Assembly: GCA_905178155.1 (NCBI GenBank)
Contig: CAJINV010000035.1
Span: 72,982 to 115,660, forward strand
DNA length: 42,679 nucleotides
Reading direction: 5' to 3'
Source: Amoebophrya sp. A120
Lineage: Eukaryota; Protista; Dinoflagellata
Positions 7,556 to 30,000 of the stretch are shown here, piece by piece. Position 1 is the stretch's first letter. Each line of letters begins with the position of its first letter. A program made the translations under genes and the position numbers. Below the pieces are notes generated by a model that was not told the DNA's origin, did no database searches, and saw only the letters and a program-made list of their open reading frames with translations.

Positions 7556-7760
7556 GCGGAAACGTATCAGCCAAACTTCTAACTTTTCACTATCAAAAGT
7601 GCGAAGATTGTGAGGCGCAAATCTGGGTGGAAGGGAAGACGCCAGATTTTGCATCACAAACTTGGCACTTCTGGTTGCAACAAAATGCAACTGTATCCTA
7701 TTGATATTTTTCGAAATTTTCCACAACCAAAAGTGCCAGGATTGTGAAGCGCAAATCTGG
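7556..7760. repeat. One full and one degenerate copy of the 134-bp unit, separated from the main array
   Basis: Same sequence as the 8346-14580 unit (gtatcagccaaacttctaacttttca...ccagattttgcatcacaaacttggc), decaying after ~7670. Confidence 0.85.
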
Positions 7761-7789
7761 CTCGGGCCTTCGGCAGTGGTTGGGGCCTT

Positions 7790-8345
7790 CGGCAGCATAC
7801 CACGCGGCTTTCCCTCGCCGCGCCTCAGAAGAGCAAGTATCTGGCGGTCGCACCTCTGCAGGCCAGATCCCAGGTTCTCTTCGGGTTTGGGGCCCCGCTG
7901 CCGCCCGACGCTGGTCACTTTCATCGCGAATCCGACGGACCGTCGGATTCGCGAACAAAATGACCAGCATGAGTTGGGCTGTCGGCAGCATACCATGCGG
8001 CTTTCCCTCGCCGCGCCTCAGAAGAGCAAGTATCTGGCGGTCGCACCTCTGCAGGCCAGATCCCAGATTCTCTTCGGGTTTGGGGCCCTGCTGCCGCCCG
8101 ACGCTGCTCACTTTCATCGCGAATCCGACGGACCGTCGGATTCGCGAACAAAATGACCAGCATGAGTAGGGCTGTCGGCAGCATACCATGCGGCTTTCCC
8201 TCGCCGCGCCTCAGAAGAGCAAGTATCTGGCGGTCGCACCTCTGCAGGCCAGATTACAGATTCTCTTCGGGTTTGGGGCCCTGCTGCCGCCCGACGCTGG
8301 TCACTTTCATCGCGAATCCGACGGACCGTCGGATTCGCGAACAAA
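7790..8345. repeat. 193-bp tandem repeat, ~2.9 copies, each with a 31-bp palindrome
   Basis: cggcagcatacc recurs at 7790, 7983 and 8176. Palindrome TCGCGAATCCGACGG-A-CCGTCGGATTCGCGA first at 7924-7954. Confidence 0.95.
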
Positions 8346-11300
8346 GTGGCCAGCTTTGCAACACAAACTTGGCCCTTCTGATTTTCGGGAAATGCAGCGG
8401 AAATGTATCAGCCAAACTTCTAACTTTTCACTATCAAAAGTGCGAAGATTGTGAGGCGCAAATCTGGGTGGAAGGGAAGACGCCAGATTTCGCATCACAA
8501 ACTTGGCCCTTCTGATTTTCGGGAAATGCAGCGGAAATGTATCAGCCAAACTTCTATTACTTTTCAGTATCAAAAGTGCGAAGATTGTGAGGCGCAAATC
8601 TGGGTGGAAGGGAAGACGCCAGATTTTGCATCACAAACTTGGCCCTTCTGATTTTCGGGAAATGCAGCGGAAATGTATCAGCCAAACTTCTAACTTTTCA
8701 ATATCAAAAATGCGAAGATTGTGAGGCGCAAATCTGGGTGGAAGGGAAGACGCCAGATTTTGCATCACAAACTTGGCCCTTCTGATTTTCGGGAAATGCA
8801 GCGGAAATGTATCAGCCAAACTTCTAACTTTTCAGTATCAAAAGTGCGAAGATTGTGAGGCGCAAATCTGGGTGGAAGGGAAGACGCCAGATTTTGCATC
8901 ACAAACTTGGCCCTTCTGATTTTCGGGAAATGCAGCGGAAATGTATCAGCCAAACTTCTAACTTTTCAGTATCAAAAGTGCGAAGATTGTGAGGCGCAAA
9001 TCTGGGTGGAAGGGAAGACGCCAGATTTTGCATCACAAACTTGGCCCTTCTGATTTTCGGGAAATGCAGCGGAAATGTATCAGCCAAACTTCTAACTTTT
9101 CAGTATCAAAAGTGCGAAGATTGTGAGGCGCAAATCTGGGTGGAAGGGAAGACGCCAGATTTTGCATCACAAACTTGGCCCTTCTGATTTTCGGGAAATG
9201 CAGCGGAAATGTATCAGCCAAACTTCTAACTTTTCAGTATCAAAAGTGCGAAGATTGTGAGGCGCAAATCTGGGTGGAAGGGAAGACGCCAGATTTTGCA
9301 TCACAAACTTGGCCCTTCTGATTTTCGGGAAATGCAGCGGAAATGTATCAGCCAAACTTCTAACTTTTCAGTATCAAAAGTGCGAAGATTGTGAGGCGCA
9401 AATCTGGGTGGAAGGGAAGACGCCAGATTTTGCATCACAAACTTGGCCCTTCTGATTTTCGGGAAATGCAGCGGAAATGTATCAGCCAAACTTCTAACTT
9501 TTCAGTATCAAAAGTGCGAAGATTGTGAGGCGCAAATCTGGGTGGAAGGGAAGACGCCAGATTTTGCATCACAAACTTGGCCCTTCTGATTTTCGGGAAA
9601 TGCAGCGGAAATGTATCAGCCAAACTTCTAACTTTTCAGTATCAAAAGTGCGAAGATTGTGAGGCGCAAATCTGGGTGGAAGGGAAGACGCCAGATTTTG
9701 CATCACAAACTTGGCCCTTCTGATTTTCGGGAAATGCAGCGGAAATGTATCAGCCAAACTTCTAACTTTTCAGTATCAAAAGTGCGAAGATTGTGAGGCG
9801 CAAATCTGGGTGGAAGGGAAGACGCCAGATTTTGCATCACAAACTTGGCCCTTCTGATTTTCGGGAAATGCAGCGGAAATGTATCAGCCAAACTTCTAAC
9901 TTTTCAGTATCAAAAGTGCGAAGATTGTGAGGCGCAAATCTGGGTGGAAGGGAAGACGCCAGATTTTGCATCACAAACTTGGCCCTTCTGATTTTCGGGA
10001 AATGCAGCGGAAATGTATCAGCCAAACTTCTAACTTTTCAGTATCAAAAGTGCGAAGATTGTGAGGCGCAAATCTGGGTGGAAGGGAAGACGCCAGATTT
10101 TGCATCACAAACTTGGCCCTTCTGATTTTCGGGAAATGCAGCGGAAATGTATCAGCCAAACTTCTAACTTTTCAGTATCAAAAGTGCGAAGATTGTGAGG
10201 CGCAAATCTGGGTGGAAGGGAAGACGCCAGATTTTGCATCACAAACTTGGCCCTTCTGATTTTCGGGAAATGCAGCGGAAATGTATCAGCCAAACTTCTA
10301 ACTTTTCAGTATCAAAAGTGCGAAGATTGTGAGGCGCAAATCTGGGTGGAAGGGAAGACGCCAGATTTTGCATCACAAACTTGGCCCTTCTGATTTTCGG
10401 GAAATGCAGCGGAAATGTATCAGCCAAACTTCTAACTTTTCAGTATCAAAAGTGCGAAGATTGTGAGGCGCAAATCTGGGTGGAAGGGAAGACGCCAGAT
10501 TTTGCATCACAAACTTGGCCCTTCTGATTTTCGGGAAATGCAGCGGAAATGTATCAGCCAAACTTCTAACTTTTCAGTATCAAAAGTGCGAAGATTGTGA
10601 GGCGCAAATCTGGGTGGAAGGGAAGACGCCAGATTTTGCATCACAAACTTGGCCCTTCTGATTTTCGGGAAATGCAGCGGAAATGTATCAGCCAAACTTC
10701 TAACTTTTCAGTATCAAAAGTGCGAAGATTGTGAGGCGCAAATCTGGGTGGAAGGGAAGACGCCAGATTTTGCATCACAAACTTGGCCCTTCTGATTTTC
10801 GGGAAATGCAGCGGAAATGTATCAGCCAAACTTCTAACTTTTCAGTATCAAAAGTGCGAAGATTGTGAGGCGCAAATCTGGGTGGAAGGGAAGACGCCAG
10901 ATTTTGCATCACAAACTTGGCCCTTCTGATTTTCGGGAAATGCAGCGGAAATGTATCAGCCAAACTTCTAACTTTTCAGTATCAAAAGTGCGAAGATTGT
11001 GAGGCGCAAATCTGGGTGGAAGGGAAGACGCCAGATTTTGCATCACAAACTTGGCCCTTCTGATTTTCGGGAAATGCAGCGGAAATGTATCAGCCAAACT
11101 TCTAACTTTTCAGTATCAAAAGTGCGAAGATTGTGAGGCGCAAATCTGGGTGGAAGGGAAGACGCCAGATTTTGCATCACAAACTTGGCCCTTCTGATTT
11201 TCGGGAAATGCAGCGGAAATGTATCAGCCAAACTTCTAACTTTTCAGTATCAAAAGTGCGAAGATTGTGAGGCGCAAATCTGGGTGGAAGGGAAGACGCC

Positions 11301-14300
11301 AGATTTTGCATCACAAACTTGGCCCTTCTGATTTTCGGGAAATGCAGCGGAAATGTATCAGCCAAACTTCTAACTTTTCAGTATCAAAAGTGCGAAGATT
11401 GTGAGGCGCAAATCTGGGTGGAAGGGAAGACGCCAGATTTTGCATCACAAACTTGGCCCTTCTGATTTTCGGGAAATGCAGCGGAAATGTATCAGCCAAA
11501 CTTCTAACTTTTCAGTATCAAAAGTGCGAAGATTGTGAGGCGCAAATCTGGGTGGAAGGGAAGACGCCAGATTTTGCATCACAAACTTGGCCCTTCTGAT
11601 TTTCGGGAAATGCAGCGGAAATGTATCAGCCAAACTTCTAACTTTTCAGTATCAAAAGTGCGAAGATTGTGAGGCGCAAATCTGGGTGGAAGGGAAGACG
11701 CCAGATTTTGCATCACAAACTTGGCCCTTCTGATTTTCGGGAAATGCAGCGGAAATGTATCAGCCAAACTTCTAACTTTTCAGTATCAAAAGTGCGAAGA
11801 TTGTGAGGCGCAAATCTGGGTGGAAGGGAAGACGCCAGATTTTGCATCACAAACTTGGCCCTTCTGATTTTCGGGAAATGCAGCGGAAATGTATCAGCCA
11901 AACTTCTAACTTTTCAGTATCAAAAGTGCGAAGATTGTGAGGCGCAAATCTGGGTGGAAGGGAAGACGCCAGATTTTGCATCACAAACTTGGCCCTTCTG
12001 ATTTTCGGGAAATGCAGCGGAAATGTATCAGCCAAACTTCTAACTTTTCAGTATCAAAAGTGCGAAGATTGTGAGGCGCAAATCTGGGTGGAAGGGAAGA
12101 CGCCAGATTTTGCATCACAAACTTGGCCCTTCTGATTTTCGGGAAATGCAGCGGAAATGTATCAGCCAAACTTCTAACTTTTCAGTATCAAAAGTGCGAA
12201 GATTGTGAGGCGCAAATCTGGGTGGAAGGGAAGACGCCAGATTTTGCATCACAAACTTGGCCCTTCTGATTTTCGGGAAATGCAGCGGAAATGTATCAGC
12301 CAAACTTCTAACTTTTCAGTATCAAAAGTGCGAAGATTGTGAGGCGCAAATCTGGGTGGAAGGGAAGACGCCAGATTTTGCATCACAAACTTGGCCCTTC
12401 TGATTTTCGGGAAATGCAGCGGAAATGTATCAGCCAAACTTCTAACTTTTCAGTATCAAAAGTGCGAAGATTGTGAGGCGCAAATCTGGGTGGAAGGGAA
12501 GACGCCAGATTTTGCATCACAAACTTGGCCCTTCTGATTTTCGGGAAATGCAGCGGAAATGTATCAGCCAAACTTCTAACTTTTCAGTATCAAAAGTGCG
12601 AAGATTGTGAGGCGCAAATCTGGGTGGAAGGGAAGACGCCAGATTTTGCATCACAAACTTGGCCCTTCTGATTTTCGGGAAATGCAGCGGAAATGTATCA
12701 GCCAAACTTCTAACTTTTCAGTATCAAAAGTGCGAAGATTGTGAGGCGCAAATCTGGGTGGAAGGGAAGACGCCAGATTTTGCATCACAAACTTGGCCCT
12801 TCTGATTTTCGGGAAATGCAGCGGAAATGTATCAGCCAAACTTCTAACTTTTCAGTATCAAAAGTGCGAAGATTGTGAGGCGCAAATCTGGGTGGAAGGG
12901 AAGACGCCAGATTTTGCATCACAAACTTGGCCCTTCTGATTTTCGGGAAATGCAGCGGAAATGTATCAGCCAAACTTCTAACTTTTCAGTATCAAAAGTG
13001 CGAAGATTGTGAGGCGCAAATCTGGGTGGAAGGGAAGACGCCAGATTTTGCATCACAAACTTGGCCCTTCTGATTTTCGGGAAATGCAGCGGAAATGTAT
13101 CAGCCAAACTTCTAACTTTTCAGTATCAAAAGTGCGAAGATTGTGAGGCGCAAATCTGGGTGGAAGGGAAGACGCCAGATTTTGCATCACAAACTTGGCC
13201 CTTCTGATTTTCGGGAAATGCAGCGGAAATGTATCAGCCAAACTTCTAACTTTTCAGTATCAAAAGTGCGAAGATTGTGAGGCGCAAATCTGGGTGGAAG
13301 GGAAGACGCCAGATTTTGCATCACAAACTTGGCCCTTCTGATTTTCGGGAAATGCAGCGGAAATGTATCAGCCAAACTTCTAACTTTTCAGTATCAAAAG
13401 TGCGAAGATTGTGAGGCGCAAATCTGGGTGGAAGGGAAGACGCCAGATTTTGCATCACAAACTTGGCCCTTCTGATTTTCGGGAAATGCAGCGGAAATGT
13501 ATCAGCCAAACTTCTAACTTTTCAGTATCAAAAGTGCGAAGATTGTGAGGCGCAAATCTGGGTGGAAGGGAAGACGCCAGATTTTGCATCACAAACTTGG
13601 CCCTTCTGATTTTCGGGAAATGCAGCGGAAATGTATCAGCCAAACTTCTAACTTTTCAGTATCAAAAGTGCGAAGATTGTGAGGCGCAAATCTGGGTGGA
13701 AGGGAAGACGCCAGATTTTGCATCACAAACTTGGCCCTTCTGATTTTCGGGAAATGCAGCGGAAATGTATCAGCCAAACTTCTAACTTTTCAGTATCAAA
13801 AGTGCGAAGATTGTGAGGCGCAAATCTGGGTGGAAGGGAAGACGCCAGATTTTGCATCACAAACTTGGCCCTTCTGATTTTCGGGAAATGCAGCGGAAAT
13901 GTATCAGCCAAACTTCTAACTTTTCAGTATCAAAAGTGCGAAGATTGTGAGGCGCAAATCTGGGTGGAAGGGAAGACGCCAGATTTTGCATCACAAACTT
14001 GGCCCTTCTGATTTTCGGGAAATGCAGCGGAAATGTATCAGCCAAACTTCTAACTTTTCAGTATCAAAAGTGCGAAGATTGTGAGGCGCAAATCTGGGTG
14101 GAAGGGAAGACGCCAGATTTTGCATCACAAACTTGGCCCTTCTGATTTTCGGGAAATGCAGCGGAAATGTATCAGCCAAACTTCTAACTTTTCAGTATCA
14201 AAAGTGCGAAGATTGTGAGGCGCAAATCTGGGTGGAAGGGAAGACGCCAGATTTTGCATCACAAACTTGGCCCTTCTGATTTTCGGGAAATGCAGCGGAA

Positions 14301-14580
14301 ATGTATCAGCCAAACTTCTAACTTTTCAGTATCAAAAGTGCGAAGATTGTGAGGCGCAAATCTGGGTGGAAGGGAAGACGCCAGATTTTGCATCACAAAC
14401 TTGGCCCTTCTGATTTTCGGGAAATGCAGCGGAAATGTATCAGCCAAACTTCTAACTTTTCAGTATCAAAAGTGCGAAGATTGTGAAGCGCAAATCTGGG
14501 TGGACGGGAAGACGCCAGGTTTTGCATCACAAACATGGCACTTGTGATTTTCGCGAAACGCAGCGGAAATGTATCAGCCA
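8346..14580. repeat. 134-bp satellite, ~46 near-identical copies
   Basis: Exact 134-bp period, also visible as identical 62-aa ORFs every 134 bp. Variants seen only in the first few and last units. Contains the imperfect inverted repeat TTGTGAGGCGCAAATCTGG...CCAGATTTTGCATCACAA. Confidence 0.98.
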
Positions 14581-15864
14581 GCCATTTCAATTTTCTACGC
14601 TTTGCATTGCAAATTTCAATTTTCCATGGACTTTGCAGTTATCATTGCAAATGCAAATTTAGCACTTCGCTACATTTGAAAATATTGGTACAAATGAAGA
14701 GGAGCAGCTTTGTGAAGAAAGCTTGCGACTATGCGTGAAGGCTACAAAAAGTTTAGACTGAAAACTGCTACAGAGGGACACTAAGGTATGTAAAATTGTT
14801 CTTCTGCCATGATATGAGCAGTAACAACGTCAATGCTTGCGGGTGCATCTACGTCTACGGCGATTCGATAAAAACATAACACGAAGCTTTTGGCTCCGTG
14901 ACGTCACAACAAAAACCCTGTGCGTCAGTTGAATGCTGCAAGCCCTTTCAAAACAAAATCTACACTGGCGGAAAACGCGATGTGCTCCTTCAGGCACCAG
15001 TGCATAATATGATATTTATAGGCCGCGCTGCCTGGAAAGTTGAGTATTGAAAAGAACCGACCATATCCGTAATTACGCAAGAGGGATTTGGTATGCTGGA
15101 CTAGTTCAATCCCACCGAAAAGAGTGCGCAACGGCACTCGTTCGCGACAAAAACGATGGTGACGACACGCAATATAAGACAACCGAATTATAGGATACCG
15201 ACCTGTAGTTTCTGTCGGCTAGATAGTGAAGCATCACACCGACTATACCACAACGAATTGTCGGCCGACCAGAGTGGAGGGTTTGCGTGGACATACGACG
15301 CCGCATCAAACACAGACTCTGAACCAATTTACCACAACACCAATGCTAACAGGACCACTGCGGACGTGGCGATCACCGGGCACGAGAGCGCACTGCTCCG
15401 TCTTTCGCTTCACCATCAGACGGGTACCACGGATCTTTTCTTCGGTGCAGCAGCGAAATACGAGCCATTTCATCTACTGTTTCTACTTCTTATCACACTG
15501 TTGTCAATCAAGAGAAAACTCGAGGTCGACGGTGTTCGTCACTTAGGACCTGCACCCCGACAGCAAACATGCGCTCGCTCCACATGTACTTGTCCTGTTC
15601 TCATCAAGGGTTTTTGGAATTAAAGCGCTTGACAAACATCCAAATCTATTTGACAGGATTAGTAAAGTGTTGACTTCTATCAAGCTTCATCTTCCGTAAG
15701 AATAAATTTTTAATTTTGGTTTTCTTGATTTTCCTCTTCATCCACATTTTTTCTGCAGTGTTTTTCCTCTTGCCGACGGTTCCGAGTACGACTTTCGCGT
15801 AAGTACTACACCAAGTACTTCGGCTGGAACTTAGACTTTCTGATTCTCATCGCCCGCTCTTCTT

Positions 15865-18800
15865 CTACGCCAATTCCTTCCGCCATTTGTCGACAAACGC
15901 CCCCCGCTTCACGGGGTCAATCGAGAGCAGGCCGTTCAAAAAATCCACCAGCTCCGTCTCGTCTTTCGTGGGAATCCGATTTTCCGTATCGTCTGTTGTC
16001 AGCGCTCGCGGATTATGAATTGCAAATCTGTCCGGAGCTTCTGGAATGCTACTGACTGACGATTCGCATGCTGTTTCAGGGTGACCCAGGAGGTCTGGCA
16101 AGCAAGACCTAGCATCACAATTTTTATTCAAACGTCGACCTTCCAATGCCTAGTCCGCATGACAAATCTTTGAGCTACAGCTACGAGGCCGCTTTTGCGG
16201 TTCATGCATGACAGATTTTTGCGAGTGCGTGATCTCAAATGTGCATCAGAAGTTTGCATGGTTCCCTACAGGACATATCTGCAATGCATAAGGCTCCGGT
16301 GCTAGTGCGGGAAGCCCTTGTTCGCCAATCCGGTCTCCGTTCCTTTCTTTCTCCGGAAGCAGGTTGCTCAGCAGTCGCCAGTACTGTAGGACGCGGTTTG
16401 GACCCGTCGAGTTGTCGGGCACTTCTCGCGACCGCGCGTAAATATTGTAAGCGCGCAAGGAAACCGGCTTCTGCACTTGCAAAAATATTGCGCTATTCAT
16501 CTTTTCAGGGGCTAGGAAACTGCACTACATTTTTCTACCTCCTGCAAAAAATATAAATTTCTGATTTTTTAGTATTTTCGTTCATAAGCACGGATCGACG
16601 AAAAGGACATAGGTGGGATATTTATGATCAATTCAACCAGCAGTACAAATCAAGTGTGTGATATTTCGCTTTCCTACGAAGCGTTGCAGTTTTTCAACAG
16701 CACCTGCTACATGAGAGCACTAGGATTGCAGCATTCCGGGATACCCGTAGTCCATCCACAGTGCTTCCAGTTCTTTATCGAGGATGGCTACCTGTTCTTT
16801 CCTCGCTTCAAGGATGGCTAGCTGTTCTGCGAGTTTCCGTTCTTTCTCCTTCTCGTCATCGGCTTGTTGTTTCTCCTCTCTCGCTCCATCTGCTTGTTGT
16901 TGTTGTTCCACCACATCAACGACCGGCTTGCTTTCGTACTGCCCCGCTTCTTCGTTCGCGCCATGTCGCTCCAATTTATTCCTCTTTTTGTACGATATGC
17001 ACCTTCTACACGAAAATCATGCCTGGTCCTGGTCCGGCACGAGGAAAAGTCCACGTGCACGAAACGAACGCTATTACTCGTATACGGACGTTGAAGATGA
17101 CACCAGGATGTGCTTGGAATAAAACAACCCTTCGCACTACTTGTTGGTGCATCGGAACACATAGTTACTTTACTTCACGTGCACGTGGACAACCACAACT
17201 ACATTATGGAAGAACATACATAGTGTGAAAAATGGCTTCTAGTGCGACAAATGCAAGCATAACACTGACCTGGACCCAGGTATATAAGTAATTTTTGCGC
17301 AAGATATTATCGCTGTTCAAAAACTTTTTGTCCTTGTCGTCACGCTGCAGGACAGGTCCCCCAACCGGCTGTGGCTGCTCCTCGTCCACCATCAAAACCT
17401 CCTTTCCGCTGTTCTTCTTTCCGAAAATGTTGAAGCCGCCGCCCTCGTGCAGCAAATTGTCGCTCTTGCTTCCCTGGAGGCCGCGCTCTTCATCGTCCCC
17501 GTTCGGGTCTATTTCCAACGACGGAAGCTTCTTCGGCCTTGCCTTCATCGCCTTTGCCATCTTTTTCCCACCACGGAGCGGCTCTTCCTGCTTCTCCAGC
17601 GCGAAAACATTTGCGGCCGCAGGATTTGCCAGCGCCGAGGAGGAGGAAGCTGAGGACGATGAGCTTGATGCTGAGGAGGAGGAAGTCGATGCAGGTGATG
17701 CGGCTGCCGAGGAGCTCGAAGAGGATGACGACCCCCCACCCATCAGCGGCGCAGTGATGGGCTCTGTTGGCGACGATGCGGGAGAGGAAGAAGACACGGC
17801 GGGACCAAACCCGACGTGGAAGGCCGGCAGATCGGGGCTCCCGGCACTTGAGGCAGTGCTGTCGCCCGATTTGTGCTTTTTCAGTCTCCCGGCAGCCCCC
17901 GCGCTAGCCGGCCGCTTTACCCCCTCGCCGGCCGGTGGCTTGGCCTGTGCTACATCTCGGAGCCGAAAGGTCATATGATCCCCGCTCGAAGCGTCTAACA
18001 CCAGCGCACCGCCCTGGGGCAGGGGGAAGAAGGGAAGCACGTAGTCAATAGCCGTGCCGCGGATGTGTTTCGCGTCCCCAAGCACGCCGCGCACGCGGTC
18101 AGCCACTGGACCCTGAGCAAACGACGGCACCGCGAGGCTCGCGCCAACGACTCCAAGGCCCCAGGCGTCTTCGATTATCGGCGACGACTTTTCGTAAGCG
18201 GCGAAGCTTTTCGTGTACAGGGAGCGAAACAGCTTCTTCGGATGCTCCACAATCACGCCCCGCTTCGGATCCTGCTTTTTCTCGCGTTTGTATATCGCTT
18301 CGATCTCCATGTTCATGATGTAGAAACCCCCTTGCTCGGGCGGCACAGACGGGAAGTCCGCAATTTTTATCGCAAGAAAAAACTGCTTCACTGTGAACTT
18401 GTGATGCAGAAAATGTATGGACTGCATCTGCAAATATGTCTGGGTGTGGACGATTGCGAGATTTGTCATGCTAGTCTGGCACGGCTCTGAACTCTGTACT
18501 GCGTGGCCGCGCAGAGCTCCTCTTGCCTGTCATGCAGACACTCAGTGTCTCATACGGAGTACGCAACTCAGAACCACGGCAAAACTTGTCATGCTGGACA
18601 GCGCATTACAGTGTTTTCACTACTCCCTTCCATGCGCCCCAAGTTTCGAGACCCAGACATATTTGCATTTGCCAAAATGGGACACAGAACTATTTGTCTT
18701 GCTACATTTTCAAGACGTGGAAGTTTCAGCCGTGTTTTCCGTCGAGAAGCGCGCACGGCAAATTTTCTGTGTCATGTGTAAACAAACTTGCGCCGCAGAT

Positions 18801-21125
18801 CTCGCAAAACAATCACAGCGAAGCACTTTTTTCATGGGATAATTATGGCGCGCTCGCTAATCTTCTTCGCCCGGTCTTCTTTATTTTCGTCCCGCTTTGC
18901 AAGAAGTTCGGCGACCTCTTTTGCCTCGCCCATGTCCATCAACACGAAGTGGAGAGTCGAAGGGAAACCCCTGCCGTAGCCAACGTTTTGCAGCTTCAAA
19001 TCTTATCCAAAGCAAACCTGTCTGGATCTGAAAACCTGTGGCGCTGACTTGCGCACGGCTGGAGCGCTTGCACTGGCTGCCAAGCTGACACGACATACAT
19101 GCGGATCGGTTTTGGCTTTTGCTACCTGCCACACATTACAGTTACAAGTCGCCGATCTGGTTATATATTGCATAACAAAAGAAGGAGCGGCTCCTCATGC
19201 GGCCGAGGCCTTCCACGCAAAGGGGTACACGGCACACGCGAAAAACGGGCGCCGCCTTTCCAGACCCAAACAGGTCCGCAGTGCATAGATCTCGGTGGGC
19301 GTAGCCGACGGCCTCGAGGTGGAACAGGGCCCGCAGGCCGTCCTTGTTGAACTTCAGCAGCTGCCCGGCCCCCGTTCCCTCCGGCAGGCCGACGACTGCC
19401 GGGACCAGGGCGGCGCACAAAATGCTGGACCCCTCCAGATCCAGCACGGCCAGGACGTTGTCGTGGGGCTGCCCCTGCAGTTTTTGGAGGATTTTGGCCT
19501 CCTTTTCGAACGCTTCCCTCACTGCACTACTCGCTTCCTGCGGCAGATATTTTCTCGCCGCCAACTGGAACGTCCCGGCGGCAAGGTCGGCAACGGCGCA
19601 CAACTCCACTTTGAGACTGCGACCCAGGTGCCACTTCGTGTCATACACGCTGAACAGTTTGCGGGAGCTGTGCTGCTGAGTGCGTGTCTTCTTCCCGAAC
19701 CGTTTGGCGGGTACATATTTGCTTGCTCGAACCTGCTCTTCCCGGGCCTTCTGCTTGAACACGTCCACGGTGAGATGCCCTGCATGCCGGGTCGCAGGCC
19801 TCTGAGGCTGCTGCCTGCTGCATTCTCGGCAGATAATCTCGCCCGCCGCGGACACGGTCCAGTTGTCGTGGTAATTATACAGTGGCGTACTGCAGCTGGC
19901 GCAACACGGGTAGAGGCGCGCCTCTGTGATCCCTGCGTCCCCACGATCAGTCGTGACTTTCAATCGCAGACCGGCCGCATCCTTTTCTGGCTTCAGGCTT
20001 TTCTCTCGACGCTTATCGGTTGCAAATCATACGCCATTCAGGGTGTGGAATGATTGCATCTTTCTCTACTTCTTCGAGAATTTCAATTTTGAATCCGCAA
20101 TAGATTGATAGATAAGTAGTATTTCGAGGCTAATATTAATTGCATCATGTTCTCTACAAGAAAACTATCACTCGCCATGCTTGTGAGGACCGGAAAGGCT
20201 AGGAAATCATGGCTCTTGAAGTAGTCACTTCACCTTTCCACACGAAGAACAGATATAGTTTGCATCGGGTATTCTTGCTTCACCTGTGCCCGCTTCTTCT
20301 TCGCTTCTTCCGTCATGCGATACTGATTCCAATCGGCCCGCTGAAGCCTCGAATCCGTGGGAATTTCGGCCGCAGTTGGACTGATGATCGTTGATTCTTC
20401 GAGGATTATTCTTGTCGCCACCATCTCATTGCCGGTTTCCGTTGCGATTACCACTTCATCTTCTGGCTCGCCAAGGTTTGTGCTGCTGTCGAGGAAGAGG
20501 AATATTGTGCCGTCTTGCTGCTTGCCGTGCGCGCCGCGCGCCCAGTCCAGAGGGGGCACGAGCAGGGCTCCTTCCTTTTCTAGCTGTTTGTTTGTAACAT
20601 CACGTAGAGCTGAGCCCGCGGGCACGGCATCCGGCGTCGCCGCTCCCAGGAAGGTTGACGCCTGGAACTCCTTCAAGGTCAGTTCGTGCATCACCCTGCC
20701 GCCACCTGCTCCCTCGCGGAAAACCTTGACAAACTTGGGAGGGGGCTTTTTTTGCACCGTTTCCACGTAATCCAGGAGCCGGAAGTGCACGCCGTGCTGG
20801 TCCACGCCCCGACTATGACAGTGCACAACTCCGTCTCTCTCCCGTGAATTTGTCATGCAAAAAAAGAAAAACATACTTAAAAATAAAATCCGAATCTCAG
20901 CAGTTGTTATCTTGCATGCAGGCCTGAATTGCATGACAGGTTGCAGCATGTCGAAAAACAACAGTGTCATCCGTGCTTGGATGATTTGGTGTGCTGGAGC
21001 TACATTCTTTGCTGCTACTCGCGCAAAGGAAATCAGGGGGAGAGGCAGTAATCATGCACTCCCATACCAATACCATCTCGTCCATTTTGCCTCTTCCATC
21101 GTGTGTGCCAGAAATTTGTCGACGC
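15865..21125 (-). CDS. Multi-exon Ser/Thr protein kinase with an upstream CxxC...CxxC motif and a long low-complexity insert; 5' end not resolved
   Basis: After removing inserts, the motifs appear in canonical order: AARK, EAFEKEAKILQKL..HDNVL, HRDLKLQN, LMDMG, SVPPE, DAWGLG, DFLNGLLSIDPVKR. Stop at 15865-15867. The links across 16470-16743 and 20814-21066 are the least certain. Confidence 0.85.
16014..16290. mobile_element. Decayed family-1 introner-like insert (kinase gene)
   Basis: tatgaattgcaaatctgtc...ggacatatctgcaatgcata, flanks cggat/aggct. Removal gives LAPEP|RALTTDD in frame. Confidence 0.75.
16470..16743. mobile_element. Strongly decayed insert / probable intron (kinase gene)
   Basis: Ends tctgcacttgcaaaaat...ccgggata, with a poor direct repeat. 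Removal plus 5 nt gives WMDYG|VSLRAY in frame and connects kinase subdomain XI to the gene. Confidence 0.5.
16996..17306. mobile_element. Decayed family-1 introner-like insert (kinase gene)
   Basis: Right end cctggacccagg...tttttgcgcaagata, left end tatgcac. Removal gives NSDN|KKRNKLERH in frame. Confidence 0.65.
18368..18841. mobile_element. Old insert hosting a nested younger copy (kinase gene)
   Basis: tatc...gata ends, flanks atttt/attat. Removal gives SERAII|ADFPSVPPE in frame. Confidence 0.75.
18416..18674. mobile_element. Family-1 element nested in 18368-18841
   Basis: TIRs tatgg...tgcaaatatgtctgggtgtgga and gagacccagacatatttgcatttgcca, with a perfect AAATG duplication. Confidence 0.85.
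19004..19287. mobile_element. Family-1 introner-like insert in the kinase catalytic loop
   Basis: tatccaaagcaaacctgtctggatctgaaa ... tttccagacccaaacaggtccgcagtgcata, flanks aatct/gatct. Removal gives HRDL|KLQN. Confidence 0.92.
20014..20271. mobile_element. Decayed family-1 insert (kinase gene)
   Basis: tatcggttgcaaat...tttgcatcgggta, direct repeat largely lost. Removal gives VKQE|REKSLK in frame. Confidence 0.65.
20814..21066. mobile_element. Decayed insert / probable intron (kinase gene)
   Basis: tatgacagtgca...tgcactcccata, flanks ccgac/ccaat. Removal gives KWTRWYW|GVDQHG, but the upstream open frame is short. Confidence 0.5.
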
Positions 21126-24025
21126 TTCACGTGCACGGTTCGGGTGAAGATGAATGTCACAGCGTCCCGCCAGCGCGCCGAGATGCGCCTGTGTTCAAGT
21201 TTTTTGTTGCAGATAGGTAATTTCTGCTTCATGTTCACCCCATGCCATACGATATGGGGTGAATATTCCAAGTAAAAACATGGATATTGCATCTCGTCTT
21301 ACGAACCGCATTTATACAAAAAAGTTTGAAATACCTGTGAGCTGCCACACCGGTGGTTGCTCTTCCGCAGCACTACACCCTGTACCACGAGGACGAGCAC
21401 GTGGTAAGTGGAGTTGTGGTCTTGGCCAGATGCACTATCTACTATAGTAGCGGGACGCAAAATACACAGTCCCGGTGGCACCCTCGTTACTCTTCCAAGT
21501 ACACCTTCGCGTCGGAAATACTTGGTTGCAGCTGACCTAGAAAGAGGACGTGATCTCCAAAGAACCAAAGTTGTAAGCCACGACTTGGAGATGATGGGTC
21601 CAGTGTTCTCAGTCACGCCGGCTTCTCGAATCGGAGAACCTGGTCGAAATCCAAAGCTCGTACTTCCGAATCAGCAAGACAAATCCACGCTGACGTAGTC
21701 GCAACCGCACGAGATCCCTTCGTCAGCTTCTCGAATCCGCATCAGCATGACAAATTGCCGTCAGCTTCTCGTCGAATCCGGAGCTAAATTATTTGATATC
21801 ATCGTGTACTAGCCCAGACTAAACAAGTCGGCGCTCCTACTAGTTGTAGTCAATCTGCGTCGCAAATGAATCCGGATCTTGTACTGCGTCCTCCTGGTGT
21901 GGCGTAGCGAAGAAGCAAGTGCTGACTGATACTAGAATGACAAACAACACTGCCACGTCGTCAGCAGGATACTGGAACGTCGACCTGCATCTCAAAGCCC
22001 GCCTGCAGGTCGTGCTTAGAGTAGGTCGTAGTTAGAGTCGAAACCTAAACCGTTGTTCTCCGTAAATTAATGCGGACTCTCCCGCTCTAAATGCACAGAA
22101 ACAGATGCTGGTGATGGTCGCCCACACCGCAAGCAAACTCCTGAACGAGAAGTTTCGGATCCTGAAACCGATTGTTCGAACGCGGGGACCTCCTTCTGCA
22201 ATGAATCCGGGATCAGGGAAGTTGTGGTTTCTTGCAGTGGTCCAACAGCACAGGGACATTTACTGCACAGCAAAATCTGTGTTGTAGTGGTAGCCAAAAC
22301 AGCTCTTCCTGTGAAGGAAAAGGACGTGGCCGTGATGCACAAGTGGTTGCTGAACCTCCACGGGGCCGTTTTGATGGCAGCTTCTGTAAAACTGCTTGAT
22401 GTGGTAAATAAACCAGGTTCACCTAGTACCCCCTGGTAGTGCGAGTCGGAATCACGCTGTTCAGCACGCTTTATTCTGATTTTATTTCTGGAAGTTGTAC
22501 GACGACGAGCTGTGGCACTACTGCACAATGTACAAACCCTCCGCCGTACTGCTCGGGACGCCGCCAGTAGCGTGCTTTTAACACAACTTCAAAAATTTCG
22601 GCTCATCCGGGACCGGATTCGCTCTTGCACTGCTGCTGCTCCCACCTAGAGAACAAACTCCTTCCTGGTTCTTGGACAAGTACGTTCCGGTAGTCTTCCA
22701 GCTGCACAATATATCAGGGAAGAGGTAGTTTTACAGCCTTGTCTCCCTTGGCACTCGTAGTTGTAATTCAAGTTCAACTCAAGTAGCAGTGCCGTCCGCA
22801 CGTTGAGGACAAGCTTCCTGGTTTTGTCCGTTCTGCTCGTTATTCTTCGTTCCAATATCAATGGACGCAGGTAGGAGCAAGACTCGACTCCGCTGGACCA
22901 GGATGCGTTTGCCGCTGGTGTGTAACAGTAACTTCGAAGAAGAAGATCCTTGGCGTTATGAACCTCTCGGAAACGTCGACAAGCGAAGCCAATCGGCTAT
23001 TATTCAAAGATGGTTGCCTTTTTGATATTCACCCCGAGGTGCGCAACTTTATTTGAAGAGTGCGCGACGAGGAAGTGCACGTCAAACAACAGTTTTAGAG
23101 ACTGCAGCTTTGGCTTCCCTATCTTCTGTTTATTAGTGCTGTTTCGAGTATATCGAGCGATCGTCTTACTTGTTGTTTTTTTGTATTCTTATTCTTTTCG
23201 AAAAAAAAAAATCACAAGCTACAACTTTTTTTATTTCCACTTCAATGTTCACTTTTGTCGAGGTTCTGGTCGGTAGAGTGACAATCAGGTTATTGCGCAA
23301 AAAAACAGGATCATGACGAGACGAACTTGATGTGAGTTCTCTTCCCACGTCGAATGCCAGCTTGAATTTTTTCAGGATCGATCCCATCGAGACGAAAATA
23401 AAATTGGCAGCGAGCAACAAGACATAGATCTCGGCGACGAGCGACGAAGAGCAACAACAAATCGAAAGCGAGGCGAGCTCAGAAAGCGGCTCTCTGCTGC
23501 TAGCCCTGAACGCAAACAATTACAAGCCACAACACAATCTTTCATGGCGCCTGTGGTCCAATACGATCGAACAGGGCCTGAGCCGTCAACACCGCTCTCA
23601 AAGCATAACTAGTACAGGGAGTCTACGTCGACGTACTTCCCCTTACTTTGTTTTTTTGGTTTTTCCATTTTTCTACACGGGTACATCAAGAAGAAGGTTG
23701 GTTTTTGAAGAATTTGAGCCACCTGTCGACGTTGGCGTCGAAGTTGCAGCTAGAACTGATAAACCACTCGGATCTTGATTACAATATTGGGACTTGGAAA
23801 TCATCATCAGCTTTCGGGTTCGGCTTCAGATGCAGCTGAGGAGCAACAATATTCGAACATCAACTTTCAGAGGCTAACCTAAGACCGAAAGTCAACACCT
23901 TATTGCAGAGTAAAGTCAGCACAGGGCTGGCGAAGTAGTTTTATTGAAAATTATCCTTGTGAAATGGTGCGCGACACAGCTCAACGGTTGCAGGAGTTTG
24001 GCCTGTCGCTGCTTTCGCCGAGAAA

Positions 24026-27000
24026 TCACGAAGAGGAGGATGAAGAAGAAGGAGCGGCGGGGTTGTTGTTCTGTTTCTCCTGCCGCTTGTGTTCCGCCCT
24101 TGCCTGCTGCAGGCTCTGCATGATGTAGGGCGACGGGTAGTCGATTATCAAATGCAAAAGTGTCTGGGTCTGGAAGGTTGAGGTTCTAAAGTTGTAATGC
24201 TGTCTCTGGATTCTGAAGAAATTTGTATTGCGTGACCAGCAAGAGAACTCCAGCCTGTGCTACGCGGAGAGGGCATTTCTCATGCGGCAGAGGCATCGCA
24301 AAGTCCTGTAAAAATCTGTGATGCTAGAGCATGCATCACAGACATCACGCGTCATTCAAAATATGCATGACAAGCCTGGCAATCTTCCAGACCCAGACAT
24401 TTTTGCGCTTGATATCGATAATTCGGACACCATTCAGCCAGGTGTTGCCCACGTCTTCGATCTTAGGCGGGTCTTTCAACGGAGTGATGCGATCCAGTTC
24501 GTAGGCCATGACGGGTTTGAAATTGCAAGTTTCCTATCAAATGGAAACATGTCTGGGTCTGGAAGGATGCAACGTTTGTTATGCACATTTTGCATCATGA
24601 CTCCTGATGTCTGTGATGCATGCCCCAGCATCACAGACTTTGTGAGGATTTCCTGATGCCCATACCGCATGAGACATGCCGTCTTTCCATGGCAAAAGCA
24701 GGACCGCTTTTGCTCTTCATGAAATAAAGGCTTTGGTAGAATGCAGACGCAGAGTCACAAGCTGCATCCTTTCAGACCCACACATATTTTCATTCGATAT
24801 TTCCCAGGTGAGGGGCGGACGCGGCTCCCCGAGGTCCTCCGCTTTTACATTCGGGAGCCCTAGCCATTTGGCCACTGCTTTTGTGCCCCGGTCGGGGTTG
24901 GACTTGTAGCCGCGGCTGGTGATGTGGTCCAAGAGGTCCGCCTTCGTTTTCAAGTGGACCACCTTGGACAGCACGCCGACCGCGACAATCGCCTGGCTCC
25001 TGTTGTTATCAAATGCAAAAGTGTGTGGGTCTGGAAGATTGCAATTTGTCATGCTGTTTTTGGACTCTAAAAAAATTTGTATTTTTGCATGACCAGCAAT
25101 AGGGGTCCAATTTGTGCTATGCGGACAAGCGATTTCTCATGCGGAAGGCGGATCAGGAAGCCCTCTAAAAGTCTGTGATGCTCGGCCATGCATTACAGAC
25201 ATCATGGGTCATGAGAAATATGCATGACAAATCTCGCAATCTTCCAGACCCAGACATTTTTGCATTTGATAGTTGTGGCGGATCAGGAAGGGGATTATGG
25301 ATTGCAAAAATGTCTGGGTCTGGAAGATTGCCAGGTTTCTCATGCATGTTTTGCATGACCCAGAAGGTGTGGAATGTGGGCTCTAGCATCACAAGTTTTG
25401 AGAGGGCTACGCAATGCTAAGTCCGCATGAGAAATGCCGGCCTCTGGTAACCAAAGCTGAGGACTTTTGCTGGTAACGCAATACAGATTTTTGCATCGAT
25501 CAGATTTAGAGTGACACACTCGGACTCTTCCAGACCCAGACATGTTTGCAATGCATAGGGATGCCAGCGTCACAACCTTTCGGCGAGTGTTATGGCGGTC
25601 GCAAGCGTTACACCACTCGCTGCTACTTACACGAAGATGGCTTCACGTTGCCGTGCCGGTGTCCATATCAGAGGAGCTGCAACTACAACTGACCCATAAG
25701 TAGCCAAAGGCGGGAAGCCAAAGTAAAGCTTGTTCATCTTCATTCGCTTCTTGCATTACAAAAAATATGGAACAGGTCTTTGCGCTTCCATTTGGCGTGT
25801 CAAAAATTTGGCACCCGGGCCATCTCGGTCATGCAGAATTTGCCTGCGCCTCGCATGACAAAGCAGGCCGAAGTTATCTAGCAGCGAGCAGCGTAGCAGT
25901 GGCTTGCCAATGTCATACTTTCGCCCCTTTCCGATACTCGGCGGTCTTGACCTTTAAGACGAAATCGTCGCAGTGTTCCGCCTCTAAGCTCGCCACTCCG
26001 ACCCGGGGCTCCTCGTGCAGGAACAAGGGCTCAAACTTGGCCACCCGGCCGTGGAACCCGCCGTCTTTGGTTTCTTCCTCCCTCCAGCACTTCGCGAGCT
26101 GGTCCTGGAGTGCCTTACTGGCCTCGCCGACGGCGTCGCGCAGAGCACCGACTTGCGCGCTGCCCATGGTGGATTCCTTGACCGCGTCTTCCAATTCCCG
26201 GACCGAAGTGTCCAGCGCGAGCTTCAACGCCAACAGCTTCTTCTCTTCGTTGTTCCATCCGTGGTTGAATTTGCTCGCAATGGCACCGGCCGCCAGCTTG
26301 CACTGCCACTCGACGAAGGCCTGTAACGAACTTTGTCCACTGCAAATGTGTCTGGGTCTCCTGGAAGAATGCAAGATTTATTGTGGTTGTACACATTGAC
26401 ACTTTGCATGACCAATGATGACGGTATTTTTCTGCATGAGCATGAGCATGAGCATGACATAGCATCACAAATTTTGTTGAGAGGGCATCCACCTGAGGCC
26501 TATTCCGCACAAGAGATGCTCTCGCTGCGTACTTACCACAAACTGGACTCCTCTGTCTACTTGCCGGTCATGCAAAAATACAGATCATTCATTTTTTCGA
26601 ATCCAAAGACAGCATCACAAGTTGCATCCGTCCAGACCCAGATGACATCACATTTGCAAGAGATATACCGCCGTGCCCCGTTACGATAGACTGTCGCAGG
26701 TCTACCACCGTCATGTACGTCCCTGCGTGGTTCGGTTGCAGTCGGTATCAAGTACAAAAATGTCTGGCTCTGGAAAAGTGTAAACTTGTGATGCAGATTT
26801 TCCATCACCCGTGAGGTCTGGAGTGCGGGACTCAGCATGACACACTCTGCGAGGTGGTCTCTGCCATGCCTATCCTGCATGAGAAGCTCAAAAGTGAACA
26901 GGTTTTGGTAATCATGCAATACAGATTCTTACATGATTCAGATCTACCACGACAAGTTGCCACCTTCCAGACCCAGACATTTTTGCATTTGATAGTCGGA

Positions 27001-30000
27001 AAAGGTTGTGCTTCGTGGAGATTTCTCGCTCCCGCTTCTTGAGGTAGGCGTAGATTTGTTTCTTGTCATCCATGCCCTGGGTGATCGGCTCCTTTCCGCC
27101 GGGCTTCTTCGCCTGGATGACGCCTTTTTCGAGCCACGGAGCACGCTTGTTCCCGATGAACAGCTCCCACTCCTGCGCCCACGTGGTGATTTCTTTGTTC
27201 ATTTCGTTCATGGCGAGTCTCGCACTGGGGCCCCCGCCATCGGGGAGGCGGGGGAAGTATCCACTGCAAATACGTCCGGGTCGTGCTCTGAAATGTTACA
27301 AAATCTGTCATGCAGGTTTTGCATAGCGCAGAAGGTCTGGAATGCGAACTGTAGCATCACAATTTTCAAGAAGTAAGTAGGCGTCCCAGTGCGTAATATT
27401 TATAATTCCATTCTGCAAAGAAAAAAGACCATCTTCGGGTGCCCAAGAAAAGTGCATGTCTTTATTTGCTTGTGCAACACAGATTTTTGTATCGTCCAGA
27501 CCTAGCGTGACAGATTCAGATCCTTCCAGACGAGGACCCAGACATATTTGCAATGCATAGAAATTTGGAATTTGCGATCTGATCCTCCGCGTCTTTCTTT
27601 TTCTCTTCCGCCTCCTTCCTGTCCTTCGCAACCGTGATCTTGCTCAAATCGACATTGATACGTGGTTGGAGATTCATGCTCTCCATGAACTCGCTGGCCA
27701 TGAAGGGGCCCTCCTCGAGCCACACCTCCTTCTGATTATCGGTGGGATTTTTCTCATTTTTCTTGGCCGGATCTTGGTCCTGCATCTGGACGTCCTCATC
27801 TTCACCGCTAGAGGGGGGCTCGGGGGCGAATTGCACTGATTCTTGTTCGAAGGTGTACGATGACGCGAACGCAGGTTTGGAAAAATTGATCTCCATCGCG
27901 GCTAGCTTATTGGTCTTGTTTTCCAGAAAACTGTATGCCTTGCAAAAGTATCGTGTACTAGTATCAATTGCATGACAAATTGATTTAGCATTACAACAAA
28001 TTGAATTTGTAATGCGGATCTGCTTTTAGGAGAAGGAATGCATAATAAATGCAATGAGTACGAGCACGATGCTTTTGCACTGCATAAACTGCGGAAGTCT
28101 TTCGCCGCATCCATCTTCATCTTCATGCCGTGGTACTCGCGGATGTAGTATGCATTGCAAATATGTTGTGTGGGTCTGGAAATTCGGAACTTGTAATGCG
28201 GGCCCGACATTTCTGTGAGGTCTGTATGGCAGGACTGAAAAAAGTCGTAGCCTCTTTTGTTGTACAAAAACGCAGCTTCTCATGCGGAGTGCGTATGAGA
28301 AAGCGTTCTGCCAACTTGTCATGCTTTCCGGCATAACAAGGTGCTTCTGCTTTCATCATGCACATTTTCGCATTACAACTTTCCAGACCCAGACATATTT
28401 GCATTTGATAAGTAGTCTTCCGTGGTCATGCTTCCCGGCTCGGGGGCGGCGTCCGCTTCGACCTGGGCAGGAGTTGTATGGCCTTCTCAAACGTTTACTA
28501 CAGTGAATGCTGTTTTTCATAAGTTTGATGCTAATAAACCGACATAATCATGACACTGTGATGCAAGAATAGCAAAAATTGTGAAAGGGGCGAGAAGCGA
28601 GTTTGCGTGTCTTGCACTGCAGATCTGAAAAGCATTTTAATTTTTTCAATGGTAATATCTACTGCGTGGAAAACTTGTCATGCGAACAAGTACTAGCTTG
28701 TGCTTGATCTTCGTTTGGAAGGGCAGAGCAATTTCACGGAACAAATGATGTAAACAGCGTATATCACTGTCACGTTGGAGAATTCCATAAGCTGCAGAAG
28801 CATGCTCGGGTTTCAGGACCACGTCACGTCCGTTTCCTTCTCCGCCTCCCTGCAGTTTGCGCTTCTTGCTCCGTTATGCATTGCAAATATGTGGTCCTCT
28901 GGGTGTGGAAAGAACCAAACTTTTCTCATGCGCATTTCACAACACACACGAATCTCTCTACTTGCATAAGCAGCAAAAGTTGTCCAATTTCTGTCACCGA
29001 ATTATATGGGGGATTTGTCATGCGCACGCGGCATTGCAGAACCTCTACCTCCCCCACGAGACCTATGATCATGCTAGGACTTAAATGCCCGACCTTGTGA
29101 ATCATGCAAAAACACCAGCATGACAAAAATTTGCAGTCTGGAGCCAGAGACATATTTGCATTGGATATGCGTCCCGTGTCCTCCCCGCCTCCATCGCCCT
29201 CCGCCGCAAATTTTATGGAAGTGGTCCCAGCTGTGTCAATCTCAATTGTGATAAAGAAGAGCCGACGAGGTTTTGAACCAGAATACTTGAATTTCTAATG
29301 CGAAATAACAGTGTGCATGAATAGGCAAATGCTTGCTGCTGTCGACTCTAATTCATCCCAGCAGTTGAAATTCTCACCCCAGCAGTGACCATATTTTCAT
29401 CGTTGCTCTTCGCAGCATCGTCGCTCGCCGCCACCAACAGCGGCTCCGGCTGGTCATCGTCGTTCTCGCTTTTCGCGTCGCTGTCGCTCTTGCTCGAAGC
29501 GTCGTTTTTTTCGCCTTCTTTTTTTTCCTTCGTCTCCCCTTCCCAGGAGTACTCGGCCAGCCCGCCTTGCAGATTGATGACGTGGATGGTAGAAGAAGGT
29601 CCGCGAACTATTGTGAGGGAAAATATCCCTCGTTCCCCATACTGAAAAGAACGACTTGATTCATTTTTGTGTACACAAAAGTATAAGAAAAAATCAGCTC
29701 TGTCTTGCATCCATTAAACTCGGGGGCCATGATGTGGAGAGCACAACTCCACGCGTCAACAAGAAGAACCGGGTGAGTGATATACTCGCAAGCCCTTGAT
29801 GCAATGCAGAGCTGATCTGTCGTGTACAACGCATCAGAATCTTCAGAAAAAAAATCGTTTTCAATATGGGGAAAGCGCCGGGAAGTAGTTTTCAGCTCCG
29901 TATCACCGCCGAGGAGCTTGTTCAGAAAGGTCTGCACCTGTTGATTCGCTTTCCACTCGACCCACTGGCCGCCGCCGCCGGAGCGCTCGATAAAAGCCTT

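What the first reader, a model, noticed from the sequence alone, without database searches (positions are those of the whole stretch)
19004..19292. Removing one insert rebuilds the kinase catalytic loop to the nucleotide
The raw ORF reads HRDLCTADL and lacks DFG, like a pseudokinase. Deleting 19004-19287 plus one AGAT(C/T) copy gives CAC CGA GAT CTG AAG CTG CAA AAC, i.e. HRDLKLQN, followed by FVLMDMGEAK. The HRDxKxxN and DxG motifs are independent of the repeat analysis, so this is strong internal evidence for exact removal. The best slide gives AT-AG ends.
Basis: partly seen in the sequence, partly recalled or inferred. Interest (0 to 1): 0.8.

Follow-up and report, generated by a model that had tools for sequence, protein, structure and literature searches.

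The report
Transposon intron cut at fixed offsets
A 289-base transposon-like insert in a kinase-like gene of the algal parasite Amoebophrya is missing, exactly, from likely-RNA assemblies; it is a known kind of intron without normal end signals, but 24 such introns here all fit one likely cutting rule, one base before and four bases after the element's ends.

Summary
The insert is real and is spliced out. The window is Amoebophrya sp. A120; the public protein P0001 already reads HRDLKLQN...DMG. Contigs of two RNA-guessed runs skip exactly 289 nt; a DNA run keeps them. It is a published kind: an A120 introner, a 284-nt TAT...ATA inverted-repeat element in a 5-bp target duplication (PMC7789003). 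What may be new: 24 of 24 introns examined in three genes are 1 nt + element + 4 nt; that register is the only one all allow and five fix it uniquely, although the paper calls the position variable. The focal intron is then 19000-19288, ends CT-AT. The cutting machinery is untested; I favour a U1-less spliceosome (0.5) over an endonuclease-ligase (0.4). The scan noted a similar intron in another dinoflagellate (e1-7625078).

The parts
19000..19288 (-). Focal intron, 289 nt, at the inferred register (1 nt + element + 4 nt; ends CT-AT). Registers up to 19004-19292 give the same mRNA.
   Evidence: Joint 18999|19289 in X3 and X4 contigs; registers; class rule
19004..19287 (-). Introner element proper, 284 nt, TAT...ATA, non-coding MITE-like
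   Evidence: ends shared with many window copies
19258..19287 (-). 5' terminal inverted repeat arm (TAT-N7-GGA; the class's AAA is changed but can still pair G-U)
   Evidence: 18 Watson-Crick + 4 G-U pairs in the first 25 positions; fold z -2.46, 1 of 100 shuffles as good
19004..19033 (-). 3' terminal inverted repeat arm (reads TAT-N7-AAA on the + strand)
19288..19292 (-). 5' copy of the 5-bp target duplication (AGATC); its fifth base is not in the mRNA
18999..19003 (-). 3' copy of the target duplication (AGATT); its fifth base is in the mRNA
19289..20009 (-). Exon upstream of the insert: kinase N-lobe up to HRD
18843..18999 (-). Exon downstream of the insert: LKLQN ... DMG
18364..18842 (-). 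Second intron in the kinase domain, 479 nt, same class, holding a nested element
   Evidence: Predicted, then seen as joint 18361|18841 in 4 of 4 runs
18416..18674 (.). Nested element of the focal end family inside that intron, own 5-bp duplication AAATG, one end decayed (CCA for ATA)
   Evidence: Sequence; DNA contigs of X1 join 18409 to 18674, skipping 264 nt
20010..20272 (-). Intron of the same class with no junction ambiguity; fixes offset 1/4 (ends AT-CG)
   Evidence: Loose ends of X3, X4, X5 mapped; P0001 allows one register
20810..21067 (-). First intron of the gene, same class
   Evidence: P0001
16992..17307 (-). Intron, same class, offsets 0 or 1 only
16466..16744 (-). Intron, same class with a decayed 3' arm (AGA), offsets 0 or 1 only
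   Evidence: P0001
16010..16291 (-). Last intron of the gene, same class, offsets 1-3
   Evidence: X3 piece ending at 16009; P0001
15865..21099 (-). Whole coding span of the host gene, 8 exons, 1022 aa, divergent protein-kinase-like (P0001, CAD7974851.1, GSA120T00025639001)

Best explanation
The insert is a 284-nt inverted-repeat element between two copies of a 5-bp target site, present in DNA and missing exactly from likely-RNA contigs, and it is likely cut from the pre-mRNA one base before its TAT and four bases after its ATA, most likely by a spliceosome that no longer needs G at the first position or AG at the end. Steps: (1) inferred: a non-autonomous DNA transposon (MITE) inserted into the codons for the kinase catalytic loop and duplicated 5 bp. 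(2) shown: 289 nt = element + 5 are removed, so exactly one target copy survives and HRDLKLQN...DMG is restored. (3) inferred from 24 introns: the cut sites lie at fixed offsets from the paired TAT/ATA ends whatever the dinucleotides there; 1 + 4 = 5 explains why any insertion in either orientation is removed without a scar. (4) inferred, about 0.5 within this explanation: the 5' end N-U-A-Y-S mimics G-U-R-A-G at +2/+3 (+5), and the stem hands over a 3' site four bases past ATA. The confidence given is for steps 1-3.
For: Joint in X3 and X4; unbroken DNA piece in X1; P0001 identical to the model. End family in very many copies: X1 summed depth up to 199,507 over family bins against about 45 elsewhere, with unrelated flanks behind the ATA end. 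Matches the A120 description TAT + 7 nt + AAA, DR 3-5 nt (PMC7789003 section 11). Register: 24 of 24 introns have length element + 5 and allow offset 1; offsets 0, 2, 3, 4, 5 are excluded by 9, 7, 9, 12, 13 of 24; five are unique at offset 1; the 8 RNA-based ones alone also intersect only at 1; about 2e-6 if offsets were uniform over 0-5. The only intron that can be read GT-AG (32553-32851) is GT-AG at offset 1. All 9 commonest A120 non-canonical types in Table S4 have T at +2, as the rule predicts; all 9 A25 types start TT with an IR starting TTA, so +2 U/+3 A is shared. Two introns predicted in a note before testing restore frames that align with paralog P0003 only at length element + 5 among changes of -2..+2. 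Family members lie in both orientations in one gene.
Against: The RNA label of X3-X7 is a guess by the tool, they are contigs not reads, and X3-X5 are one sample; the two raw RNA runs laid (X9, X10) do not cover the gene. They and the public proteins may rest on the same data. 16 of 24 registers come from public protein models, not junction reads; 3 of the 8 RNA-based ones have one end inferred. I placed the arms by the TA[TC]/ATA motif, so +2 T and +3 A are partly true by construction; 2 of 24 have a changed 3' arm. One window only. The paper's Fig. 3 legend says splice sites are variable relative to the hairpin. For the machinery step: no AG is available in any allowed register for 18 of 24 introns, +1 and -1 are free, and U1 was not found. 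No orthologue without the insert was found, so insertion is inferred from anatomy.
Confidence: 0.82

Rival explanations
1. Same intron, same fixed offsets, but removed by a non-spliceosomal system: an endonuclease that measures from the paired ends and an RTCB-type ligase, as proposed for Euglena nonconventional introns and animal SOS splicing.
For: +1 and the last four bases are free; both ends carry the same motif as a pair; Euglena introns have fixed 3-nt and 5-nt spacers outside a paired CAG/CTG and are thought not to use the usual spliceosome (PMC12501133); inverted-repeat pairing triggers spliceosome-independent SOS splicing (PMC12779559); A120 lacks detectable U1.
Against: SOS splicing is described as imprecise while these junctions are exact; +2 U/+3 A is kept in both strains and +5 is G in 13 of 24; 83 of 89 spliceosomal proteins are reported present; old introns keep the motif with only 6-9 ungapped pairs in 25. 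Nothing here tests the enzymes.
Confidence: 0.4
2. The cut floats: each introner is cut at whichever register inside the duplicated target best resembles a splice site, here AT-AG.
For: AT-AG is an allowed register here and is among the nine commonest A120 types, 8 of which have A at -2; Fig. 3 and S23 legends give variable positions of 1-5 nt.
Against: All five uniquely fixed junctions are at offset 1 with ends AT-CG, AT-TC, AT-AT, GT-AC, CT-GG; only 6 of 24 introns have any allowed register ending in AG. Ambiguity inside intact duplications explains an apparent spread.
Confidence: 0.12
3. The element is removed from DNA (transposon excision or programmed elimination) and the skipping contigs are DNA.
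For: The RNA label of the skipping runs is only a guess; the anatomy is that of a DNA transposon.
Against: X1 holds the insert in one unbroken piece at depth 44 and no joint at this site is among those shown (list cut); the skipping runs cover exons and lack every intron of the gene; keeping 4 bases of one target copy and 1 of the other in step with the transcription direction is not what end-symmetric excision would give (inference).
Confidence: 0.03
4. The gene is a pseudokinase or broken gene and the restored motif is chance.
For: Pfam scores stay below cut-off and the glycine-rich loop is degenerate; the fold model is unusable.
Against: Junction seen in contigs; 1022-aa open frame after removing seven inserts; residues 305-600 score 0.96 to Pkinase clusters, 207 of 256 features shared.
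Confidence: 0.02

Closest known systems
Amoebophrya sp. A120 introner elements / non-canonical introns (Farhat et al. 2021, PMC7789003)
   Same: Same organism; terminal IR starting TAT + 7 nt + AAA; 3-5-nt direct repeat over the borders; repeated, non-coding, about 240 nt; non-GT-AG ends; this splice is already in the public protein CAD7974851.1.
   Different: The paper's text leaves the border unknown and calls it variable; here 24 of 24 fit one register with a 5-bp duplication.
Euglena nonconventional introns (Nomura et al. 2025, PMC12501133)
   Same: Short paired motifs at fixed spacer lengths from the cut sites, free terminal dinucleotides, direct repeats, proposed MITE origin.
   Different: Motif CAG/CTG with 3-nt and 5-6-nt spacers and a purine after the 3' site, tested by knock-in; here TAT/ATA with 1 and 4 nt, untested; unrelated lineage.
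SOS splicing of DNA transposons in animals (Zhao et al. 2025, PMC12779559)
   Same: RNA-level removal of a TIR element guided by pairing of its ends, not tied to GU-AG.
   Different: SOS splicing is imprecise and needs AKAP17A, CAAP1 and RTCB; these introns are exact and the factors were not looked for.
Fritillaria borealis non-canonical introns (seen only through the review PMC11282704)
   Same: MITE-derived introns with TIR and TSD removed despite non-canonical ends, attributed to an adapted spliceosome.
   Different: Preferred AG-AC/AG-AT ends and a TAC target; here the end dinucleotides are free.
Micromonas and Aureococcus introners (PMC11282704, PMC9860276)
   Same: MITE insertion whose target duplication is split by the splice so that the mRNA is unchanged.
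   Different: They keep canonical GY-AG ends.

Membership tests
Amoebophrya A120 introner element | Lies in an Amoebophrya A120 gene | tested here: met
   P0001 and P0002 100% identical to window exons, named Amoebophrya sp. A120
Amoebophrya A120 introner element | RNA-supported intron with non-GT-AG ends | tested here: met
   Joint in 2 of 4 RNA-guessed runs; none of five registers is GT-AG
Amoebophrya A120 introner element | Terminal inverted repeats of 8-20 nt or more forming a hairpin, starting TAT + 7 nt + AAA | tested here: met
   22 of first 25 positions pair; 3' arm fits exactly, 5' arm has GGA for AAA; fold z -2.46
Amoebophrya A120 introner element | 3-5-nt direct repeat over the borders | tested here: met
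   AGATC/AGATT, 4 of 5 identical
Amoebophrya A120 introner element | Repeated family | tested here: inconclusive
   The ends match many window copies and a very high-copy family, but the interior had no BLAST match at E 1e-4 to the other 23 elements; no genome held
MITE (non-autonomous TIR DNA transposon) | Short, TIRs, target-site duplication, no transposase | tested here: met
   284 nt, 5-bp duplications intact in 8 of 24 copies, element length + 5 in 24 of 24
MITE (non-autonomous TIR DNA transposon) | Empty site in a relative and a cognate transposase | tested here: inconclusive
   No orthologue found; transposase not searched; the paper found none in A120
U2 spliceosomal intron | GT/GC-AG ends | tested here: not met
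U2 spliceosomal intron | Lariat intermediate, snRNP dependence | not testable with these tools
   needs lariat sequencing or inhibition
U12 (AT-AC) intron | AT-AC or GT-AG ends and minor snRNAs | tested here: not met
   No such register; minor snRNAs reported absent
Euglena nonconventional intron code | N3-CDG ... CH'G-N5-6 signature | tested here: not met
   Here N1-TAY-S ... S-ATA-N4; it works alike but is not a member
SOS splicing substrate | Dependence on RTCB, AKAP17A, CAAP1; imprecise junctions | not testable with these tools
   Junctions seen are exact, but contigs drop rare variants
Protein kinase (Pfam Pkinase) for the host gene | Score above the curated cut-off | tested here: not met
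   15.5 bits against 31.7
Protein kinase (Pfam Pkinase) for the host gene | Catalytic motifs: beta3 Lys, alphaC Glu, HRDxKxxN, DxG | tested here: met
   Aligned to CaMK1D through HRDLK..N; DMG at 452-454 read from P0001; Atlas 0.96 to Pkinase clusters; motif names recalled

The most novel reading that the evidence does not exclude
Amoebophrya A120's tens of thousands of 'signal-less' introns obey one simple code, N-TAY-S ... S-ATA-NNNN: cut one base before and four bases after the paired transposon ends, which splits the 5-bp target duplication 4 + 1 and makes any insertion in either orientation a scarless intron at birth; some of its GT-AG introns are the same class by coincidence of target sequence. 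This would be a second, independently evolved spacer-ruled splicing code beside Euglena's.
Probability: 0.7. Interest if true: 0.65.

Novelty: already known. Interest (0 to 1): 0.4.

Why it matters
The finding as given is ordinary for this genome: about 65% of A120 introns are non-canonical (Table S4) and this splice is in the public protein. The fixed register would matter more. How these introns are removed without U1 and without AG is an open question in the describing paper, which leaves the borders undefined. A one-line rule gives exact borders for ambiguous introns, lets gene finders model them, tells where to look for lariat branch points or ligated circles, and predicts which bases are free to drift. 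It also explains how a transposon family could invade coding sequence, even a kinase catalytic loop, at little cost.

Tried and rejected
No whole genome was held, so no genome-wide count. No RNA holder was on record as such; raw RNA runs X9 and X10 laid 97 and 3 reads, only on repeat ends, so they say nothing on this gene. A blind stem-score scan for the 42-nt exon and for a 279-nt intron gave wrong placements and an open-frame scan gave none; both were replaced by motif and protein-guided placement. A first rule-based join of the neighbouring gene without its protein was incomplete. In one search I placed intron 26330-26666 one base off; corrected. A 16-nt gap in the P0002 model at 24058-24073 (no TAT/ATA, no matching join) was left out of the 24, with P0002 residues 731-768. 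The search for the third gene's own public protein found none within 446-1420 aa and only a 33% paralog among representatives, so the out-of-sample test reached length but not register: offsets 0-5 give the same peptide at both testable sites, and the third predicted intron (36765-37091) was not tested. A greedy upstream walk gave implausible joins beyond the first step and was dropped. Single-sequence AlphaFold of P0001: mean pLDDT 38.6, unusable, no fold search run. PDB sequence searches were weak for both spliced and raw forms (best E 0.04 and 0.054) and do not separate them. The X7 joint 18409|18682 was considered as a nested-splicing intermediate and rejected: it has a mismatch, two foreign letters and a loose end, and DNA contigs show similar joins, so it is likely another copy of the outer element.

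Full report
Observation. On the minus strand the raw frame 19142-19963 reads HRDLCTADL. Removing 289 nt gives HRDLKLQN and, 17 residues on, DMG. Of 2187 frame-matching deletions around the two ends, 8 give HRDxKxxN; the 8 listed are all 289 nt. The flanks are AGATC (19288-19292) and AGATT (18999-19003), so the peptide does not fix the nucleotide: eight registers give the same residues.

RNA evidence. Eleven runs were listed, none on record as an RNA holder. I laid 4 on 15000-34999 and 4 on 17200-20200, 7 different runs in all. X1 behaves as DNA of this strain: unbroken pieces without differences at depth about 45, one spanning 18761-24170. X3, X4, X5 and X7 (RNA by the tool's guess) cover exons and skip inserts. 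X3 and X4 join 18999 to 19289 (289 nt, 4 ambiguous letters); X5 and X7 stop short of it. All four join 18361 to 18841, a second insert that I had predicted from the sequence. X9 and X10 are raw RNA that lay only on repeat ends (97 and 3 reads) and are uninformative.

Identity. The exon before the insert is 100% identical to P0001, a 1022-aa unnamed protein of Amoebophrya sp. A120 (CAD7974851.1). It already contains HRDLKLQN...DMG and equals my seven-intron model at 1022 of 1022 residues. The host protein is a divergent kinase: Pfam Pkinase 15.5 bits spliced (profile 25-148) against no Pkinase row for the raw ORF, both under cut-off; weak alignment to CaMK1D; Atlas 0.96 to Pkinase clusters for residues 305-600. 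Its activity is untested.

Anatomy. The element is 19004-19287, TAT...ATA, 284 nt, with 18 Watson-Crick and 4 G-U pairs in the first 25 terminal positions and a fold z-score of -2.46. Its ends match many copies in the window; in X1 the family bins reach summed depths up to 199,507 and run into unrelated flanks just behind the ATA end. Its interior had no match to the other 23 elements. This fits the published A120 introners: IR starting TAT + 7 nt + AAA, 3-5-nt direct repeats, no transposase (PMC7789003 sections 10, 11, 16).

The register. I collected 24 introns in three minus-strand genes: 7 of 7 in P0001, 14 in P0002 (a 16-nt model gap was left out) and 3 in a third gene. All 24 are element + 5 nt; 22 have TA[TC] at both arms. 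For each I listed the registers that give the same mRNA (contigs) or protein. Offset 1 (one base before TAT, four after ATA) is allowed by 24 of 24; offsets 0, 2, 3, 4, 5 are excluded by 9, 7, 9, 12, 13; five introns are fixed uniquely, with ends AT-CG, AT-TC, AT-AT, GT-AC, CT-GG; the chance under uniform offsets 0-5 is about 2e-6 after allowing for six offsets. At that register +1 is any base (A9 C6 T5 G4), +5 is G or C in 24 of 24, -8 is G or C in 23 of 24, and -4 to -1 are mixed. Only 6 of 24 can end in AG in any allowed register; the single possible GT-AG falls at offset 1. In the paper's Table S4 all 9 commonest A120 non-canonical types have T second and all 9 A25 types begin TT. Two further introns predicted in advance restore frames matching paralog P0003 at length element + 5 but cannot tell the register. 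The focal intron is therefore most likely 19000-19288 with CT-AT ends; AT-AG would need offset 3.

Limits. One window; contigs, not reads; the RNA label is a guess; the public models may share data with these runs; arms were placed by motif, which makes +2 T and +3 A partly circular; young copies with intact duplications carry no information. The paper's Fig. 3 legend calls splice sites variable relative to the hairpin and the border unknown, and the S23 legend gives 1-5 nt. I could not see the figures, whose logos may already show the pattern, nor the datasets of PMC12130899.

Mechanism. Shown: exact removal from likely-RNA, retention in DNA. Inferred: MITE insertion with a 5-bp duplication; cutting at 1 and 4 nt from the paired ends, which keeps four bases of the first copy and one of the second and so restores the target in either orientation (both orientations occur in one gene). 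For the enzyme I put 0.5 on a modified spliceosome (U at +2 and A at +3 in both strains, most spliceosomal proteins present, U1 not found; tunicate precedent as reported in PMC11282704), 0.4 on an endonuclease plus ligase (free end bases; Euglena's fixed-spacer code, PMC12501133; SOS splicing, PMC12779559, which is however imprecise), 0.1 other. Several old introns keep the motifs with only 6-9 ungapped pairs in 25, which suggests that the short motifs matter more than a long stem; a nested copy that need not be spliced has lost one end (18416-18674), a single case.

Novelty. The intron class and this splice are known. A fixed register was not found in the papers returned by six searches of the held library, which lacks most subscription papers and theses. 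Papers seen: PMC7789003 abstract, passages, sections 10, 11, 16, supplement passages (Tables S4, S5, S7, legends S19-S25); PMC11282704, PMC12130899, PMC9860276, PMC12005148 passages; PMC12779559 abstract, passages, Discussion; PMC12501133 abstract, passages, section 8. The Fritillaria paper was seen only through the review. Kinase motif names and the GURAG consensus are recalled. Earlier scan notes: none in this genome; one similar intron in another dinoflagellate, not checked.

Verdict. Real, spliced, already known as a class and already annotated; interest 0.4, carried by the probable fixed-offset code (0.7 likely genome-wide, 0.65 if true).

Noticed in passing
window 8355-14580 and 4072-7538: Two long near-perfect tandem arrays: 46.4 copies of 134 nt and 26.3 copies of 132 nt, both 99% matches. 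The 132-nt array is an open frame of 1194 aa (3998-7582) only because the unit is 44 codons; Pfam hits there have no passing stretch.
   Followed up: no
window 1808-4069 and 7789-8354: 453-nt (5 copies) and 193-nt (2.9 copies) tandem units carrying internal palindromes of about 40-59 nt.
   Followed up: no
window 15865-16009 (P0001 residues about 990-1022): The C-terminal segment DFLNGLLSIDPVKR resembles kinase subdomain XI (recalled motif), about 400 low-complexity residues after subdomain IX: a possibly split kinase domain.
   Followed up: no
window 18416-18674: Element nested inside intron 18364-18842 with its own 5-bp duplication; one end decayed, as expected if it need not be spliced on its own.
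   Followed up: partly
window 32553-32851: An introner that reads GT-AG at the fixed register only because its target was TCAGG; some 'canonical' A120 introns may be of this class.
   Followed up: partly
window 23944-30099: Neighbouring gene (P0002, 768 aa) holds 14 introners in 6 kb, with exons as short as about 20-30 nt, family members in both orientations.
   Followed up: yes
window 24058-24073: 16-nt gap in the public P0002 model without introner ends; probably a model artefact or frameshift patch.
   Followed up: no
window 25005-25671: Raw RNA run X9 has 97 reads at 90-99% likeness on the element ends with different flanks and no cover elsewhere: a related strain seems to carry the same end family at other sites.
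   Followed up: no
window 30976-37958 and 41462-41875: A third minus-strand gene and a further segment both align to A120 protein P0003 (30-56% in pieces), suggesting a local paralog family of unknown function.
   Followed up: partly
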